Notes under the pieces: generated by a model | Databases searched by the model: none | What the model saw: only the letters and a program-made list of their open reading frames with translations | What the model was told of the DNA's origin: nothing | Translations under genes and position numbers: made by a program | In this document: positions 1 through 7,700 of the stretch, one piece after another | How the letters are laid out: each line of letters opens with the position of its first letter | Position numbering within the stretch: the first letter of the stretch is position 1 | Source: the human T2T-CHM13v2.0 reference genome, Homo sapiens | Reading direction: 5' to 3' (one strand) | Assembly: GCF_009914755.1 (NCBI RefSeq) | Contig: NC_060935.1 | DNA: 64,000 nucleotides

Positions 1-443
1 GTTCAATTCTGAGATAGGAGAAAAACCGCCCTGTGGTGGGAGGCAAGACATGTTGGCAGCAATGCTGCTTTATTATTCTTTACTCCACTGAGATGTTTGG
101 GTGGAGAGAAACATAAATCTGGACTATGTGCACATCCAGGCATAGTACCTTCCCTTGAACTTATTTGTGACACAGATTCCTTTGCTCACGTTTTCTTGTT
201 GACCTTCTCCTCACTATGACCCTGCCCTCCTACCGCATTCATCTTGCTGAGATAGTGAAAATGGTAATCAATAAATAATGAGGGAACTCAGAGAATGGTG
301 CAGGTGCGGGTCCTCTGTATGCTGAGGGCCGGTCCCCTGGGCCCACTTTTCTTTCTCTATACTTTGTCTCTGTGTCTTATTTCTTTTCTCAGTCCCTCCT
401 CCCACCTGATGAGAATTACCCACAGGTGTGGAGGGGCTGCCTC
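1..443 (+). mobile_element. HERV-K (HML-2) LTR5A/B-type LTR, 3' portion (cut by window start)
   Basis: LTR5-like blocks gagataggagaaaaaccgcc, AATAAA at 270-275 and the U5 end cccacaggtgtggaggggctg. No PBS or gag follows, so probably a solo LTR. Confidence 0.8.
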
Positions 444-2288
444 CGAATTAAGGAGCACAGCGGGCGCCTTGAGAGGGTCTTGGAGGGTCATTCGGGCGGT
501 GAGGTCTGGAGGAAAGCGGGGCGGGTTTCTTCCTCCTGAGGTACCAGGAAGATGGAGGCCACTGCAGACCGCGTGCCCCTACTAGTCCCTGCGGCCCTGG
601 GCGCTCGAACCTCGGGCCACAGCTAGGATGGGCGCGGTGGTTATTCCCTTTTCTGGAAGGAGGAAGGCTAGCAGCCTCTGGAGTTTTGATGGGGCCGACA
701 CCCCCTTAAGAGTCCAAACGAAGGCTCCTTATGAAGGCATTACTCTCATAGAGGTTCTTTGCCTTCCAGGTCTTTGACTGAGCTGGAGTCTATGATCTGG
801 ATCCTAGGAATCCCGATCTCACAACACTTTTGACCTCAAATTGAAGTGAACATCACCTTTTCCTGCTAGTAGTTGAGTAATTTGGTAATATTTATCCAAA
901 ACCTAAAAATCATGCACAATCATCTAGACCATCAAAACAGAGTAACATGGTAGTAGTAAGAGAAGTAACAATGGCAAAGGCGCCATACCATTTCCGGAGC
1001 GTTCGTGCCAGGTACATCTCCACGACCATCCCATAGGCTACCTCATTTAGGCTCATGCCCTCTATGAGACAGTATTAGCGGGGGCATGTTCTTTACATGC
1101 AACGACAGAACCAGGACAGAGGCAAACATAAAGACGCAGTGGCTTTCAGGGTCGAGCTCAGCACAGTGTTAATTCTGTCTATATTCTACTGCCCAAAGCC
1201 CAACATTGATGGGGTGGAGAGCAACTGCAAAGGCACCTGGCAACCAGTGTGTGTACAGGGAAGGGGGAAGATCTGAGAACAATTTTCCACACTCGGCCAC
1301 TGGTTCTTCCAATTCTCCAAGTACTTCAAACTAGATTAAACAGCAAACGTGTATTTAATATAGAATGTGTGTGCATTTTAATATATTGGATAGGCTATGA
1401 GACGTGACCTGGAAAAGCACTAGGCTTAGATACAATATTGCATTAAACTGCTCTGGGTCCATGAATGTGAGAATCATATTCATTCACCTCTGTTCCCCAA
1501 TGTCCAGTACAATACCTGGCACAAAGTAGGAATTAACACATCTCTTAAATGAATGAAACCATGTGGAAATGATATTATTTGTGTACCTCTTCTGTCTTCC
1601 CTATTTGAGGGCAGGGGTCAACATTTTACCCTTCATAGAATGTGGCACCGGATCTTGTAAATTGCCACCCGAAATTTATACCTTGAATAGATTATTGGAT
1701 TAATGAAAAAGCATTATACTAGGAAGAAGTAAGCCACTGTGCCTTTTTGCAGTTAGATCTGAGAGGCAGCCATCATTCAATAGAATAAGTTTGGCTTCTA
1801 GTTTCAGATGGGAATACAAATCCTCATAAGGATGTTTCTGCACAATTATTTGCTAAAGCTTTTTGTGAAATGGCGAAGATAATCTCACCTTCCCCACAGG
1901 GTTATTGAGAGTATTAAATGAAACAGACACATGTAAATGCCAAGCTCAGAGAGGAACTCAAAGCAGTACAGCAGCAGAGGTCATTTCCCTCTACACACTC
2001 CCTGCTGCTTCCGTGGGCAGACATAAGTGTTAGCCAGGCCAATGAAAGCAGTTAAGCAGCCAAGTTGGACTTTGCCAAGGGATCCCACACCACCACCACC
2101 CCTTTTAAAGGTTACTACAAAAGTAATCTTAAGAAAGTTTTATATATAATAACTGTGATATTTTTAACTTGATTGCACATCTTATCAAACAGGTATTGAT
2201 TTTCAGTGCTTTCAATGATTAAGAATAAGGGCAACAAAAAAGAAAATCTGTGTATAATATGATGAACCTGGAATTTTTGGTTTCATAC

Positions 2289-2339
2289 GTGTGTGTATAT
2301 ATATGTATATTTATGTATATATATATATATACACACACA
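2289..2339. repeat. Compound (TG)/(TA)/(CA) microsatellite
   Basis: Dinucleotide runs are directly visible. Confidence 0.9.
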
Positions 2340-3108
2340 GAGCAGTAATGGCCTTTAAAATAAATTCAAATAATGATAGAAAACAAAACATCTTCATGCA
2401 TGGTGTAATCTTTTTCCTACAAGAAGGCCTTGTTTTAAAAATGTGCATAAGGTTATGCTTTTGCATATTTTATATAATTTCTTAAAGGTATGTTATCAAA
2501 TTAATGTTTTCCAGCCAGGGTATCATATTTAAGGGTGATAGTAAATACTCCAAACACACCAGCTGTCACAAAATAATTATGCCTATGTCTATTATTGTTA
2601 TCTGTTTCTCATAAAATTAATCATAAATGATATGAATTATTGATTAAAATTAGTGTTTATAGACTATAAACCTATGAAAAGCCACAAGAGCAGTATTTTT
2701 ACATATTTTTCAAGAATTCAGATAACAGTGTAACCTTTGATTATAATAACAGAATTCATTTCTGTAGCAGAATTACAAATACAGCAATTATAAATATAAA
2801 TGATACTCCGTTAAGTCCATCCTGCTTTTAACTGTGCAACTATTTACAGCCAGAGGCAGGAATAAAAAAGGGTGTATACGTGTGGAAGAAAATTCACTCC
2901 ATGCTGTTTTTGACCTTGCGTGTAAAAAATAATTCATTACTATCAAAAGAGGCATTTTCCCAAATAAAAACAAACAAGGAAACAAAAACACAGGAAAAAA
3001 AAAAAAACTACTTACTGACCGTGACTTAAGTGTGGAGGAAAAAACCCTTTGCAGCTAATGTTGGCAAAAGTGTGTCCCCCGTAGATTTAGTCTAAGAATT
3101 AAGAAACT

Positions 3109-3374
3109 GGCCGGGCGCGGTGGTTCATACCTGTAATCCTAGCACTTTGGGAGGCCAAGGTAGGCGGGCTGCCTGAGTTCAGGAGTTTGAGACCAGCCTG
3201 GGGAACATGGCGAAATCCTGTAGTCCCAGCTACTCAAGTGGCTGAGGCATGAGAATCGCTTGAACCTGGGAGATGGAGGTTTCAGTAAGCCAAGATCATG
3301 CCACTTCACTCCAGCCTGGGTGACACAGTGAGACTCTGTCTCTAAAAAAAAAGAAAAAAGAAAAAAGAAAAAAA
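3109..3374 (+). mobile_element. Alu (S-type) with ~50 bp internal deletion of the central linker
   Basis: GGCCGGGCGCGGTGG start and A-rich tail; ggcgaaatcc joins directly to tgtagtcccagc at ~3217. Confidence 0.93.
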
Positions 3375-4136
3375 TAGCCTGTTTAATGAAGCATTGACAA
3401 GGAACCCAGGCTATGATTATAGAATAGGAGCTTCATAGTAATTGTAAGAACTCTGGTTCTTAGAAGACAAAAGTTAAATTTAATAAATAAGTTTAATGGC
3501 CAAAATATCTTTTTAAAACTTGTTTGTAGTCTTTAGAATGTGAATTTTATTTGGTTTAGATCTTACTAAGCTATATTTTGTAACTGAAATTAATACTTCA
3601 TTTTTGCCTGAAATTAGTAGAAAAAACAATAGCTAAAGTTTGCTACAGATAAATAAATGTCAATATTAGACTTTTTTTCTTTTGAAAAGGTAGGGAACTT
3701 TAATTAGTAATATAAGTTAAGAAAATGACAAAGATGTCAGATAATGAAGAAAAAATGTGACAGTAATCTTTCATCCAAAAAAAGGTTATGTTCCTATTGT
3801 CTAAAGCCAAAATATATTTCATTGCAAATATATATAAAGTTTAAGAATTGTTATTTTAGGCCCTTTCCGCAATAAGCCAACACATAACTTATCATGCCAT
3901 AAATGTTTTTAAAAGAAATATGATTAAAATTATACAAAACGACATAAAAATTTCAGAAAGAATATTGATAAATATCTTGGTACATAGTAGATTTAGTTGC
4001 ACAGATATTAGGTGGTACAAGTTTTATATCTTCTATAATAATAACTTTTTATTATCTCCTTGTGCACTAATATTTCAATATGTCAAAGTCATTTGAATAA
4101 CCTTTCTAGTAAATCTCAACTTCGTAGATTGAAAAC

Positions 4137-4760
4137 TTTTTTAAAAGCTTTATTTAAGTTTAGTGGTACATGTGCAGGTCTGCTATATAGATAAACTCAT
4201 GTCATGGGGGTTTGATGTACAGATTATTTCACCACCAAGGTATTAAGCCTAGTACCCATTAGTTGTTTTTCCCGATCCTCTCCCTTCTTCCATCCACCAC
4301 CCTCCGATAGGCCCCAGCGTCTGTTGTTCCCCTCTGCGTGTCCATGTGTTCTCATCATTTAGCTCCCACGTATAAGTGATAATATGCAGTATTTGATTTC
4401 TGTTCCTGCATTAGTTTGCCAAGAATAATGGCCTCTAGCTCCATCCATGTCCCTGTACAGGACATGATCTCATTATTTTTTATGGCTGTGTAGTATTCAA
4501 TGGTATACTGAGTTTTCTTTATCCAGCCTACCACTGATAGGCATTTAGGTTGATTCTTTGCTATTGTGAACAGCGCTGCAAGGAACATACGTGTTCGTGT
4601 GTCTTTATGAAAGAATGATTTATATTCCTTTGGGTACATACCCAGTCATGGGATTGCTGGGTTGAATGGTAGTTCTGTTTTTAAGTCTTTGAGGAATTGC
4701 CACACTGTTTTCCACAATGGTTGAACTAATTTACACTCCCACCTAGTATATAATCCTTCC
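4137..4760 (-). mobile_element. L1PA/L1PB-type 3' fragment (ORF2 C-terminus plus 3'UTR)
   Basis: ORF 4355-4639 (YPKEYKSF..TRMFLAALFTIAK..WMELEAIIL) is the L1 ORF2p C-terminus; a typical L1 3'UTR follows. Confidence 0.92.
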
Positions 4761-4875
4761 TTTTGGAAACAAATTTTATCAGTATATTCAATTCTGAACA
4801 CCCATGTTTTAGAAAATGTTAAGCCTATTGTCCTTTAATCACTATTTGCTTACACATTAAAATGTAAAACAGGCA

Positions 4876-5134
4876 AAAGAGAAAGAAGGAAGAAAGGAGG
4901 GAGGGAGGGAAGGAGAAAAGTGAGAAAGAAAGAAAGATAAAAGAAAAAAGAAAGAAGAAAGAAAGAAAGAGAAGAAATAAAGAGAAAAAAGAAAGGAAGA
5001 AAGGAAGGAAGGAATGAAGAAGAAAAGAAAAAAGAGAAAGAAAGAAGGAAAGAAAAAGAAAAAAAGAAAGAGAAAGAAAGAAAGAAAGAGAAAGAAAGAA
5101 AGAGAGAGAGAGAGAGAAAGAGAGAGAAAAGAAA
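4876..5134. repeat. (GAAA/GGAA/GA)n polypurine tract
   Basis: ~260 bp of almost pure purine repeat. Confidence 0.95.
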
Positions 5135-5269
5135 ATTTTCTCCAGATTAGAATTATTGGCTGCTATTGTTTGGATGCTGGGTACTAGCTGTGATTACCCT
5201 TTGTGAATGTAGGAATGCACAGATTCCAAAAGTGAGTCTCATAGAAAAAGTCAGCATTCAAATATGTTT

Positions 5270-5901
5270 TAAGGTTACTCTATCCAAACCCCAAAGAACC
5301 CACAGAAGATGAAGCAGTAATTTTAGCTTCTCTTGGTGTATTGTACATGCATTTAAGGCCAGTTCCTTCCTTCAAATTCCCATGTGTTTTGTAGTTACCA
5401 ACACACCTTTCAACCCTATCTGTTTATATACATCATATAGTCCTCTGTCAATTGCATAAAAGTTGTCCCCTTTGTGACTGTAATCGCCTTTTCCAATACA
5501 CATCTACTCAGAATGCAGGTCCTTAAACAGCAGGCTGCCTTGAAAACCCTCTCCAATCTTCTTCGATCATCAGCTTTGAGATGCATATTCCTAGAGCCCA
5601 TATCATCTTCTTCATCACTATCATAAACGTCTCCACATATTGATGAACGTTTGGAGAATCGATTTATGACAAGGGAGTTTACTCTTCCTGCATCCGCGGC
5701 TTCTTCGTGATTTTGTCCTAGTCACCGGGCCTATCCCACCTGCTGGGGATGCCGCCCCCTCGGAAGTGCCTGAAATCTCCCCACTTACCCAACTAGCCTC
5801 AGCGCCTCCTGTGTGCTGCAGCAGATGGCGCGCTGCAGACCCCAGCCTGGTGCCTCCGCGACTCCTCCCCAACCATGATTTACAGGCGGGGACAGCCACA
5901 T
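5270..5901 (-). pseudogene. Processed pseudogene of PRKAR2B (PKA regulatory subunit RII-beta), coding remnant
   Basis: Minus-strand translation gives collinear blocks GGGIPSR, ADAGRVNSLVINRFSKRSSICGDVYDSDEEDDMGSRNMHLKADDRRRL, LLFKDLHSE* (TAG 5504-5506), [37 protein letters not shown] and LDRVT. These match RII-beta [104 protein letters not shown] and LDRVT. No introns; frameshifts and a stop are present. The boundary above ~5760 is weaker. Confidence 0.88.
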
Positions 5902-6460
5902 TCCTGCGCCCCAACTTCCACCTCCGCTTCCTGCGCGCGCGAGACTCAAGCTGCCACAGTGGCTCTGCCGCCAGCGTCCCAGCTCCTCCCACACCCGAGT
6001 TTTTATTTCCTGCTCCCTCTCCAGCCCGGCCCAGGCCAGCCTACCGGCGACTAGGATGCTTTCGCTTTCGCTCTCGCTTTCCAATACTCGGGACTGGGGA
6101 AACCGGGAGAATAGAAGCAGGCAAGGACCGCCGTGGGCACGGGGTCAGTGAGACAGGGTCCTGCTCGCGGCGTCAAGGAGGAGCGCTGTGGGTGGGTAGG
6201 GTAGGCGCGCCCCCTCGGCCTTGCCTTTCCAACCACTCTTTTTTGCACGCCAACAGGTGTCCCCAGCGCAGCCAATCGGCTTCCGAAGTAGGTGAGTTGC
6301 TGCCTGAAGAGAAAAGACAAACTCCAGTATCTTTCATTCCATTGGCCAGACGCGCCATTCCCCAAGTGAGTTCTGTTCTCCAACCAAAGTGCTGGATTCC
6401 AAGGGACTGGAAGGGAAAGTCCCTAAAAATCACGAGTTCAGGCGTCTGAGACTTGGTGGG
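5690..6460. promoter_or_regulatory. FAM111A: CpG island, upstream bidirectional promoter of FAM111A / FAM111A-DT
   Basis: High CpG/GC content; ETS core CGGAAGTG 5761-5768; CTCF-like GCAGCAGATGGCGC 5818-5831; tandem IRF-type hexamers 6058-6081; CCAAT boxes; + strand donors AG|GTGAGT at 6291 and 6478. Confidence 0.8.
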
Positions 6461-6670
6461 AACGGACCTTCCTCTTAGGTGAGTTACTCTTTGGTTCTGG
6501 GGCTGACCTGGAGTTTTGCCAGGATTCATTGGCCGCAGCAGGATGCTGGTGGGGACAGGGTAAATAAAATCTGCACTCCTGCGGGCTTTTATTGTTGAAA
6601 GGGGCACTGACGCTCTCCCTGGAAACTTAAAAAGAACAGCCAAGTGAACGGATGTGTCTTTCTTTTGCAG

Positions 6671-6869
6671 TGCCCAAGCCTGTTCTAATTTTTAAAAACT
6701 GATGTCTATTAAGACCCAATGTTAACTTTATGAAAATGGTTCCTAAGGAGATTCACATCTCTGTGTCCGAATTCTGTGTGCAGCAAACATCATCTCAAGT
6801 GCGTTTTCCCAACTACGCTTCTTTCCAGGATAAAATACTCTAAGTGACAAATGTTGAGTACATTATCAG
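6671..6869 (+). other. FAM111A: Candidate FAM111A non-coding 5' exon
   Basis: Acceptor tttcttttgcag ending 6670; donor CAG|GTATGT at 6869/6870. Confidence 0.6.
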
Positions 6870-6882
6870 GTATGTTCACTAT

Positions 6883-7700
6883 TGTGAGAACTGAAGCCAT
6901 CTACACTCACATAGCTTGCCAACTACATTAACCTGACTTCTTATTCCATTATTTTCATCAACATACATTTACTATTTCAAGAAACTTTTGCCAGGGACCG
7001 GAAAGTTGCAAATATCTTTATTGCTTAATCCAGTATCTTCTTCAAAGATCCAACCACTCTTCAATGGAAAACATCAAAGAACAGTTTACATTCTAAGACT
7101 TTGAACCTTTACCTCAAAATCCTAGCCTTGTTTTATCTACCAATCCTAAACTTTTACCCGTAGCTGACTCAATTCTAACCAATTCCCCTCATTAAATATT
7201 AGACTTACAATGGGACTTCAAAATCTCAATACATATAGCCCAAACTTGCTCTTCCCTCTCTGAGACACCACTTAAATTCTGTCAAGTTATTGTTCTCCAT
7301 TACCTAAGTGAGCAAGAAACTTAGCTTTGTCTTATCAACAGGTTGCTTTGATATTACTGGGAGCCAACATTTGACATTCTTGGAGGCTCCAGCAAGACCT
7401 AATCAACCTCCCAACCCTCAACTCAGAATCAGTGTGTGCCCTGAAGTCCCTTCAACCTTCTTGAGGCTCTCCCTGATCTCAAAGGTGGAGAAAGTAGATC
7501 TTGCATCAGGTTGAACTCCAGTTTCTTTTTGCTCAGTTTTTCAAGCGCTGAGTTTATTTTGTCCCTAGGCATAAAGAAATCTTTCTAGGAACCCCTTTGG
7601 TTATGGGACCAGATTTTTAAAAGCTTTTTAGGCTTGGTGAAAAATCTGCCTTATCACTAGCAACACTACGACTTGTCTCTGTTCTTGTTTTTTGTTGTAC
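6883..7700 (+). mobile_element. Old ERV1-class LTR (MER34-like, ~6883-7377) plus start of internal leader
   Basis: TG...CA ends; U5-like aaacttagctttgtcttatcaacagg; followed by ttcttggaggctccagcaaga, resembling an ERV1 PBS/leader start. Confidence 0.5.

What the first reader, a model, noticed from the sequence alone, without database searches (positions are those of the whole stretch)
2120..5901. Cryptic PRKAR2B retrocopy lying head-to-head with FAM111A
Seen: minus-strand translation across frameshifts gives about eight collinear peptide blocks of the PKA RII-beta subunit. They include the inhibitor site (RFSKRSSIC vs RFTRRASVC), the acidic linker and the cAMP-binding domain A cassette ([10 protein letters not shown]). 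The blocks run without introns across what are several exons in the parent (from memory), so this is a processed copy. The second cAMP-binding domain appears deleted. The AT-rich DNA down to ~2120 resembles the parent 3'UTR as I recall it. The ORF track shows only a fragment (5416-5601). Later Alu and old L1 insertions imply an ancient event. I am not aware of an annotation for it.
Basis: partly seen in the sequence, partly recalled or inferred. Interest (0 to 1): 0.9.

Follow-up and report, generated by a model that had tools for sequence, protein, structure and literature searches.

The report
Old PRKAR2B processed pseudogene beside FAM111A
This is a dead, very old intron-less copy of the PKA regulatory-subunit gene PRKAR2B that RefSeq already lists in part, and a small piece of it now serves as part of the first exon and the splice site of the non-coding RNA FAM111A-DT.

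Summary
On the minus strand, window 5868-5259 aligns as one block to the spliced PRKAR2B mRNA. The block runs from codon 17 in exon 1 to 28 nt into exon 7 (E 2e-54, 76% identity in ungapped columns). All 6 exon junctions it crosses are joined without intron. Window 4852-2112 is collinear with the parent 3'UTR, from base +138 to the parent's poly(A) site. About 625 nt of mRNA are missing, which includes the whole second cAMP-binding domain. In their place lie a 130-nt unrelated low-copy element and a (CTTT)n array. An L1 3' end with its own target-site duplication and an Alu were inserted later. The copy is dead: 22 frame-breaking indels and at least 10 stops in every frame. It is old: K2P 0.25-0.42 in six of seven aligned blocks. 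It is not unannotated, because RefSeq LOC100422399 covers 5261-5804. That is 544 of the roughly 3,757 bp footprint. One detail is new. The last 80 nt of FAM111A-DT exon 1 and its GTAAGT donor are PRKAR2B-derived, and exon 2 is an antisense-Alu exon inside the copy. The finding is real, ordinary and already known in kind.

The parts
5259..5868 (-). PRKAR2B-derived coding part. It runs from codon 17 of exon 1 through exons 2-6 to 28 nt into exon 7 (about residue 257), with all exons joined without introns.
   Evidence: One BLAST HSP 5699-5271, E 2e-54. Local alignment 5868-5259 is 76.0% identical over 599 ungapped columns. 6 of 6 exon junctions are contiguous. Shuffle z 108.
5134..5263 (-). Unrelated 130-nt segment that starts exactly where exon-7 homology stops. 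It is a low-copy dispersed element with a relative on chr6.
   Evidence: No similarity to the missing part of the mRNA (z 0.6). It is 76-80% identical to G000:C6:113211331-113211465.
4853..5134 (.). Simple repeat, (CTTT)n on the minus strand and (AGAA)n on the plus strand.
   Evidence: Tandem Repeats Finder rows 4886-5135, period 4, 54 copies. The hub's table masks 4851-5144.
4761..4852 (-). PRKAR2B 3'UTR bases +138 to +239 (chr7 108475762-108475863).
   Evidence: Score 33-35 against shuffles of 12.1 +/- 1.5, z 13.7. 86% identity over 87 ungapped columns.
4137..4764 (-). Later insertion of an L1 3' end (ORF2 C-terminus, 3'UTR, A-rich tail). About 14 nt of the retrocopy's 3'UTR are duplicated on both sides, at about 4765-4778 and 4122-4135.
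   Evidence: ORF 4355-4645(-) matches LINE-1 ORF2p residues 1176-1270, E 5e-30. It matches three L1 copies in the chr7 introns at 60-76%. Both flanks align to chr7 108475850-863.
3787..4135 (-). PRKAR2B 3'UTR bases +226 to +617.
   Evidence: BLAST 4106-3803, E 1e-20 against 160 kb. z 15.6. In the reverse search, the parent 3'UTR finds window 3803-3935 as one of only 4 matches in the whole genome.
3399..3786 (-). Stretch inside the copy that no longer aligns to the 3'UTR. Window 3635-3781 is 76% like a segment 6.5 kb away on chr11, so it is probably an inserted element.
   Evidence: z -0.6. Match to chr11:59083115-59083258, with no match to the PRKAR2B mRNA.
3102..3382 (+). Alu inserted into the copy. 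FAM111A-DT exon 2 (3131-3341, minus strand) is an antisense-Alu exon. Its acceptor is the T-run plus AG at 3343-3342, and its donor is CAG|GTATGA at 3131/3130.
   Evidence: Read directly. Exon coordinates and repeat mask come from the hub's table. Many Alu-like hits in the chr7 introns. The Alu name and consensus are recalled.
2713..2983 (-). PRKAR2B 3'UTR, weakly preserved block (chr7 108476676-108476952).
   Evidence: Score 40 against shuffles of 21.7 +/- 3.2, z 5.8. 68% identity over 256 ungapped columns.
2343..2664 (-). PRKAR2B 3'UTR, strong block (chr7 108476970-108477308).
   Evidence: BLAST E 3e-23 against 160 kb. z 20.3.
2112..2274 (-). Last part of the PRKAR2B 3'UTR, ending at the parent's poly(A) site (chr7 about 108477543). 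No A tail is left.
   Evidence: z 4.9; alignment. Two young retro-fragments on chr6 and chr8 end at 3'UTR bases 1914-1921, which fixes the poly(A) site. No similarity beyond, in 2099-1800 (z -0.3).
5789..5982 (-). FAM111A-DT exon 1. Its last 80 nt (5868-5789) and the donor G|GTAAGT (5789/5788-5783) lie in PRKAR2B-derived sequence.
   Evidence: Exon coordinates from the hub's table; donor read. The alignment shows no GT at that place in the parent (GGGCAGGACC against GGGTAAG in the copy).

Best explanation
A nearly full-length PRKAR2B mRNA was reverse-transcribed and inserted on the minus strand about 160 bp upstream of what is now the FAM111A start. This is the L1-type retroposition that makes processed pseudogenes.

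The copy once ran from at least codon 17 to the parent's poly(A) site. It then decayed as neutral DNA:
- It gained many indels and stop codons.
- It lost about 625 nt of mRNA: the rest of exon 7, exons 8-11 and the first 137 nt of the 3'UTR. That span includes the second cAMP-binding domain. A 130-nt foreign element and a (CTTT)n array now lie there.
- An L1 3' end, a further ~150-nt element and an Alu were inserted into its 3'UTR part.

It encodes no protein. Its only present role is passive. It lies in the divergent transcription unit of the FAM111A CpG-island promoter. So 80 nt of it form the end of FAM111A-DT exon 1, a mutation-made GTAAGT inside it is that exon's splice donor, and the rest is intron 1 plus an Alu-derived exon 2.

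Shown: the homology, the lack of introns, the reach to the poly(A) site, the disablements and the order of the L1 insertion. Inferred: L1 machinery as the agent, the age, and that the donor arose after insertion.
For: Identity of the parent:
- The chr7 locus encodes RII-beta. Its exon 1 translation hits RII-beta chains at E 7e-57 and RII-alpha at 1e-13 or worse.
- The joined exons give a 418-aa open frame.

No introns:
- Contiguous window blocks map to chr7 exons that lie 5-52 kb apart.
- 6 of 6 junctions are joined exactly.

3'UTR:
- Collinear blocks have shuffle z of 4.9 to 20.3.
- The chain runs from chr7 108475762 to 108477543.
- In the whole-genome reverse search, the parent 3'UTR has 4 matches, one of which is this window.
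- Homology ends where two young retro-fragments show the mRNA to end.

Death of the gene:
- 28 indel events, of which 22 are not a multiple of 3.
- 10, 11 and 10 stops in the three frames.
- 0 Pfam families for 4 of 4 peptides tested.

Age and order of events:
- K2P is 0.25-0.29 in the coding part and 0.31-0.42 in four 3'UTR blocks. One 87-site block gives 0.15.
- The L1 came after the copy, because both of its flanks repeat the same ~14 nt of the parent 3'UTR.
Against: - No poly(A) tail is left after 2112.
- No significant target-site duplication was found. The best candidate is a 9-mer at 5995-5987 and 2091-2083, and 40 of 500 shuffles reach its score.
- The 5'UTR and the first 16 codons are not detectable (z 1.0), so the true 5' end is unknown.
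- Window 3743-3399 does not align to the parent (z -0.6).
- The whole-genome search with window 2100-3095 returned only simple-repeat hits and not chr7. Only 40 of 116 candidates were scored.
- An internal gap rather than a 5' truncation is not what retroposition itself produces, so it needs a second event.
Confidence: 0.95

Rival explanations
1. The copy is limited to about 5259-5868, and the AT-rich DNA from 4852 to 2112 only resembles the PRKAR2B 3'UTR by shared base composition.
For: - Identity is low, at 60-64% over gapped BLAST columns.
- Two sub-stretches show nothing or little: 3743-3399 has z -0.6, and 2282-2146 has BLAST E 0.75 against the 160 kb.
- The genome-wide search with 2100-3095 did not list chr7.
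Against: - Dinucleotide-preserving shuffles give z 15.6 and 20.3 for the two main blocks.
- All blocks have the same order and strand as in the parent, and they end at its poly(A) site.
- Both whole-genome searches (parent 3'UTR as query, and window 3400-4136 as query) find each other among 4 and 3 matches.
- The L1 flanks duplicate one parent 3'UTR site.
Confidence: 0.02
2. It is an expressed retrogene that makes a truncated RII-beta-like protein or peptide, for example a pseudosubstrate or inhibitor-site fragment that binds the PKA catalytic subunit.
For: - The longest frame (5416-5721, 101 aa) keeps a recognisable inhibitor-site region.
- The locus is transcribed in the same direction as part of FAM111A-DT (hub's table).
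Against: - That frame lies in intron 1 of the annotated lncRNA, which spans 5788-3342.
- Its translation contains no methionine ahead of the matched region.
- The copy carries 22 frame-breaking indels and at least 10 stops in each frame.
- No Pfam domain is detected.
- Transitions and transversions are about equal (73 and 71), and the coding part has diverged about as much as the non-coding 3'UTR part. Both fit neutral decay.
Confidence: 0.01
3. It is a DNA-level (segmental) duplication of part of PRKAR2B rather than a copy made through RNA.
For: No poly(A) tail or target-site duplication can be shown.
Against: - Exons spread over 106 kb of chr7 lie joined, base to base, within 610 bp.
- No intron sequence of the 160-kb parent locus matches the window outside common repeats.
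Confidence: 0.005

Closest known systems
LOC100422399 (RefSeq: protein kinase cAMP-dependent type II regulatory subunit beta pseudogene)
   Same: It is the same object on the same strand. Its span 5261-5804 lies inside the coding-derived part found here.
   Different: RefSeq gives it no exons and only 544 bp. The alignments here add 5805-5868 at the 5' end. They also add the 3'UTR-derived blocks between 4852 and 2112, broken by an L1, an Alu and other insertions. The total footprint is about 3,757 bp.
PRKAR2B, the parent gene (G000 chr7, 11 exons, 418 aa)
   Same: 76% identity over exons 1-7 and 68-86% over the 3'UTR blocks. The order is the same and the 3' end is the same.
   Different: The copy has no introns. 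The first 16 codons and the 5'UTR are not detectable. Residues from about 258 to 418 (the second cAMP-binding domain) are absent. The frame is destroyed.
Young PRKAR2B 3'UTR retro-fragments on chr6 (10860731-10861362) and chr8 (5484727-5484817)
   Same: They come from the same parent mRNA and share its 3' end.
   Different: They are 94% and 90% identical and strongly 5'-truncated (635 and 91 nt). The chr6 one still has its ~14-nt target-site duplication and a short A run. The chr11 copy is far older and nearly full length.
Retrocopies transcribed from a neighbour's bidirectional CpG-island promoter, and antisense-Alu exonisation (general knowledge, recalled; no paper read for this)
   Same: The copy lies head-to-head with a CpG-rich promoter (GC 0.62-0.68, CpG o/e 0.7-0.9 at 5800-6300). 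Part of it is in the divergent transcript. Exon 2 uses the usual antisense-Alu splice sites.
   Different: Only 80 nt of the copy are exonic, and nothing shows that this piece matters for the lncRNA's reported activity.

Membership tests
Processed pseudogene (retrocopy) | Homology to the mature mRNA of a parent gene located elsewhere in the genome | tested here: met
   The chr11 window aligns to the chr7 PRKAR2B exons and 3'UTR.
Processed pseudogene (retrocopy) | Exons joined exactly, with no introns | tested here: met
   6 of 6 junctions crossed (e1/e2 to e6/e7) are contiguous. The parent introns there span 5-52 kb.
Processed pseudogene (retrocopy) | The copy reaches the parent's polyadenylation site and carries an A tail | tested here: inconclusive
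   Homology ends at chr7 about 108477543, which is the site defined by two young retro-fragments. Only four A's follow in the window.
Processed pseudogene (retrocopy) | Flanking target-site duplication | tested here: inconclusive
   The best candidate is a 9-mer, and 40 of 500 shuffles reach its score. The 5' end is also uncertain.
Processed pseudogene (retrocopy) | Loss of coding capacity | tested here: met
   22 frame-breaking indel events. 10, 11 and 10 stops per frame. The longest frame is 101 aa.
PKA type II regulatory subunit (functional protein) | N-terminal dimerisation/docking domain | tested here: not met
   DNA homology starts at codon 17 and is broken by deletions. There is no significant tblastn HSP before aa 58 at this site. 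No Pfam hit for 5785-5901.
PKA type II regulatory subunit (functional protein) | Inhibitor (autophosphorylation) site RRxS | tested here: not met
   It reads RFSKRSSIC where the parent has RFTRRASVC. The paired arginines have become KR. Whether KR still binds was not tested.
PKA type II regulatory subunit (functional protein) | Two tandem cyclic-nucleotide-binding domains | tested here: not met
   Domain A survives only in pieces spread over two frames with stops. Domain B (aa 258-418) is absent. 0 Pfam families.

The most novel reading that the evidence does not exclude
The retrocopy did more than land beside FAM111A. It founded the divergent transcription unit.

Under this reading its true 5' end is near 5986. 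The non-significant 9-mer repeat at 5995-5987 and 2091-2083 would then be the remains of its target-site duplication. The whole of FAM111A-DT exon 1 (start 5982) would be PRKAR2B-derived, and the mutation-made GTAAGT donor at 5788 turned a dead pseudogene into the spliced lncRNA. That lncRNA is reported to activate FAM111A (PMC10475779; abstract and searched passages seen).

A regulator of a replication and antiviral protease gene would then be a domesticated PKA-subunit pseudogene.
Probability: 0.12. Interest if true: 0.4.

Novelty: already known. Interest (0 to 1): 0.15.

Why it matters
It matters little for biology at large. The human genome holds thousands of processed pseudogenes, and this one is already in RefSeq.

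Three practical points remain:
- **Annotation:** the RefSeq entry covers only about a seventh of the real footprint. About 2 kb of 'intergenic/intronic' DNA upstream of FAM111A is explained as decayed PRKAR2B 3'UTR.
- **FAM111A-DT:** this lncRNA has a published role in liver cancer. Its first-exon end and splice donor come from PRKAR2B-derived sequence, and its second exon comes from an Alu inside the copy. Neither PRKAR2B nor 'pseudogene' occurs in that paper's main text.
- **Probe and primer design:** probes, primers or short reads for the PRKAR2B 3'UTR or exon 6 have distant relatives here and closer ones on chr6 and chr8.

Tried and rejected
- **The search for homologous proteins**, 101-aa frame, 'longer' proteins: 92 candidates, none at E <= 0.001. 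It gave no reference protein, so I derived the parent from the genome instead.
- **Pfam** on 4 PRKAR2B-like peptides and on 2 L1 peptides: 0 families each. The L1 was named from PDB instead.
- **Rfam** on window 1-7000: 0 matches.
- **5' extension to 5901 or into a 5'UTR:** not significant (z 1.0).
- **Homology of 5258-5145 to the missing exons:** not significant (z 0.6). A weak 71-column alignment to exon 9 was rejected.
- **Homology beyond 2112:** none (z -0.3).
- **Target-site duplication of the retrocopy:** not significant.
- **A copy beside FAM111B or elsewhere:** the whole-genome search with 5261-5901 found only the window itself and parent exon 6. This is limited by the tool's sensitivity at about 75% identity.
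- **Whole-genome search with 2100-3095:** swamped by a (TA/CA)n stretch.
- **Literature.** These searches cover main text only, and no supplementary files were opened:
  - 'LOC100422399': 0 papers.
  - 'PRKAR2BP': 0 papers.
  - 'PRKAR2B' + 'retrocop': 0 papers.
  - 'FAM111A' + 'retrocopy': 0 papers.
  - 'PRKAR2B' + 'pseudogene': 42 papers, 15 listed, none about this locus by title or abstract start. I opened one, PMC10787177, by searched passages only, and it is unrelated.

Full report
**What was checked.** The window is human chr11 (T2T) and the whole assembly could be searched. A search with window 5261-5901(-) found, besides itself, one place on chr7 at 76% identity. I fetched 160 kb around it. 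From open frames and splice sites I derived an 11-exon gene whose joined exons give a 418-aa frame. Its exon 1 translation matches PDB chains named 'cAMP-dependent protein kinase type II-beta regulatory subunit' at E 7e-57. RII-alpha chains reach only 1e-13 or worse. This is the parent, PRKAR2B.

**The coding part.**
- The 101-aa frame 5416-5721(-) matches RII-beta chains at E 6.5e-12 and RII-alpha at 0.006. The inhibitor-site region is aligned there.
- Against the joined parent mRNA, window 5699-5271 is one BLAST HSP (E 2e-54).
- A local alignment extends it to 5868-5259, which is mRNA 444-1162. That runs from codon 17 to 28 nt into exon 7, with 455 of 599 ungapped columns identical.
- The score is 189.5, against 14.3 +/- 1.6 in 100 dinucleotide shuffles.
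- All 6 exon junctions crossed are contiguous in the window. In the parent the same exons are 5-52 kb apart. It is therefore a copy made from spliced RNA.
- tblastn of the parent protein against the whole window gives 4 HSPs at this site, in three minus frames, not eight. It gives none there for aa 256-418.
- The copy has 28 indel events, 22 of them frame-breaking, and 10, 11 and 10 stops in the three frames.
- Pfam finds nothing in 4 of 4 peptides tested.

**The 3'UTR part.** The parent's stop codon is at chr7 108475622-24. The following window blocks align, collinearly and on the same strand, to the sequence after it:

| Window block | chr7 match | Support |
|---|---|---|
| 4852-4761 | 108475762-863 | z 13.7 (tested as 4850-4765) |
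| 4135-3787 | 108475850 onward | z 15.6 (tested as 4136-3744); BLAST E 1e-20 against all 160 kb |
| 2983-2713 | 108476676-952 | z 5.8 (tested as 3095-2665) |
| 2664-2343 | 108476970-7308 | z 20.3; BLAST E 3e-23 |
| 2274-2112 | 108477340-543 | z 4.9 (tested as 2282-2100) |

- The best unrelated, non-repeat hits in the 160 kb score E 1e-4 or worse, in AT-rich or dinucleotide stretches.
- Searching the parent's 1,936-nt 3'UTR against the whole genome gives 4 matches: itself, chr6, chr8 and window 3803-3935.
- Searching window 3400-4136 against the whole genome gives 3 matches, one of which is the chr7 3'UTR.
- The chr6 and chr8 matches are young, 5'-truncated retro-fragments (94% and 90%). They end at 3'UTR bases 1914-1921, and the chr6 one still has a ~14-nt direct repeat and a short A run. 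They fix the mRNA's 3' end at chr7 about 108477538-545.
- The window's homology ends at that same point, at 2112, and nothing aligns beyond it (z -0.3).

**What interrupts the copy.**
- Parent mRNA 1163-1787 is missing, about 625 nt. That is the rest of exon 7, exons 8-11 and 137 nt of 3'UTR.
- Exon-7 homology stops at 5259. From there, a 130-nt segment (5263-5134) begins that is 76-80% like a place on chr6 and unlike PRKAR2B. A (CTTT)n array follows it.
- Window 4764-4137 is the 3' end of an L1. Its frame matches LINE-1 ORF2p residues 1176-1270 at E 5e-30.
- The DNA just before and just after the L1 both align to chr7 108475850-863. That is a ~14-nt target-site duplication, so the L1 entered the copy after the copy was made.
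- Window 3743-3399 does not align to the parent (z -0.6). Window 3635-3781 is 76% like a segment 6.5 kb away on chr11, so it is probably another insertion.
- Window 3102-3382 is a plus-strand Alu. I read this; the name is recalled, and the stretch is masked in the hub's table.

**Ends.**
- The 5' boundary that can be shown is 5868. Window 6100-5869 against the parent's upstream region and first 20 codons is at chance (z 1.0).
- No A tail remains.
- The best candidate target-site duplication is a 9-mer whose score 40 of 500 shuffles reach.

**Age.**
- K2P distance to the parent is 0.29 for the whole coding part and 0.26 for exons 2-7. Leaving out the parent's CpG sites gives 0.27 and 0.25.
- Four 3'UTR blocks give 0.31-0.42. 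One 87-site block gives 0.15.
- From memory, not from any call, the human lineage has accumulated about 0.17 neutral substitutions per site since the human-mouse ancestor.
- The parent's coding sequence is conserved. On that basis most of the 0.25-0.29 lies on the pseudogene branch, and the insertion would predate or lie near the eutherian radiation.
- This is inference. No other mammalian genome was available to test it.

**Relation to known annotation and to FAM111A-DT.**
- The hub's RefSeq table already lists LOC100422399, a PRKAR2B pseudogene, at 5261-5804(-). The object is therefore not new. The annotation misses 5805-5868 and the whole 3'UTR-derived part.
- The same table gives FAM111A-DT exon 1 at 5789-5982(-) and exon 2 at 3131-3341(-).
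- Reading, exon 1 ends in G|GTAAGT at 5789/5788. In the alignment that place is PRKAR2B-derived, and the parent has no GT there. The donor therefore seems to have arisen by mutation in the dead copy (inference from a gapped alignment).
- Exon 2 uses the T-run plus AG and the CAG|GTATGA of the antisense Alu.
- So 80 of the 194 nt of exon 1 come from the copy. Intron 1 is the rest of the copy.
- The region 5800-6300 is CpG-rich: GC 0.62-0.68 and CpG o/e 0.7-0.9. This fits a bidirectional promoter shared with FAM111A, whose start is at 6030.
- PMC10475779 reports that m6A-modified FAM111A-DT activates FAM111A. I saw the abstract and searched passages only. Its main text contains 0 occurrences of 'PRKAR2B', 'pseudogene' or 'retro'.
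- Its m6A sites (501, 779, 881) lie beyond the first two exons, which total 405 nt, so they are outside the copy.

**Literature.** See Tried and rejected for each search. None of them found a paper on this locus. The searches cover main text only, and no supplementary files were opened.

**Verdict.** The retrocopy reading is right, and the claim that it is unannotated is wrong. It is an ordinary, old, dead processed pseudogene. The one detail worth keeping is that it supplies the end of exon 1 and the splice donor of FAM111A-DT.

Noticed in passing
L020 (G000:C6:10860731-10861362, minus): A young 5'-truncated retro-fragment of the PRKAR2B 3'UTR (94%, 3'UTR bases 1280-1914). It still has a ~14-nt direct repeat on both sides and a short A run, and it lies next to an Alu.
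   Followed up: partly
L021 (G000:C8:5484727-5484817, minus): A 91-nt retro-fragment of the extreme 3' end of the PRKAR2B mRNA (90%), followed by an A-rich stretch.
   Followed up: partly
window 5134-5263 and L035 (G000:C6:113211331-113211465): A 130-nt element of unknown family, 76-80% alike in the two places. In the window it starts exactly at the break in exon 7 of the retrocopy.
   Followed up: partly
window 3635-3781 and L032 (chr11:59083115-59083258, window coordinates -2885 to -2742): Two 76%-alike ~150-nt segments on the same strand, 6.5 kb apart. One lies inside the retrocopy and the other at the 3' end of FAM111A-DT. Neither is like PRKAR2B. They may be a local duplication or an unnamed repeat.
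   Followed up: partly
window about 5878-6005: The 'FAM111A promoter' qPCR primers printed in PMC10475779 map, by eye, inside FAM111A-DT exon 1. That is just 5' of the PRKAR2B-derived part, so the amplicon is the lncRNA's own first exon.
   Followed up: no
window 2285-2345 and 2962-3008: A (TA/CA)n stretch and an A-rich 15-mer array lie inside the 3'UTR-derived part. The first one swamped the whole-genome search.
   Followed up: no
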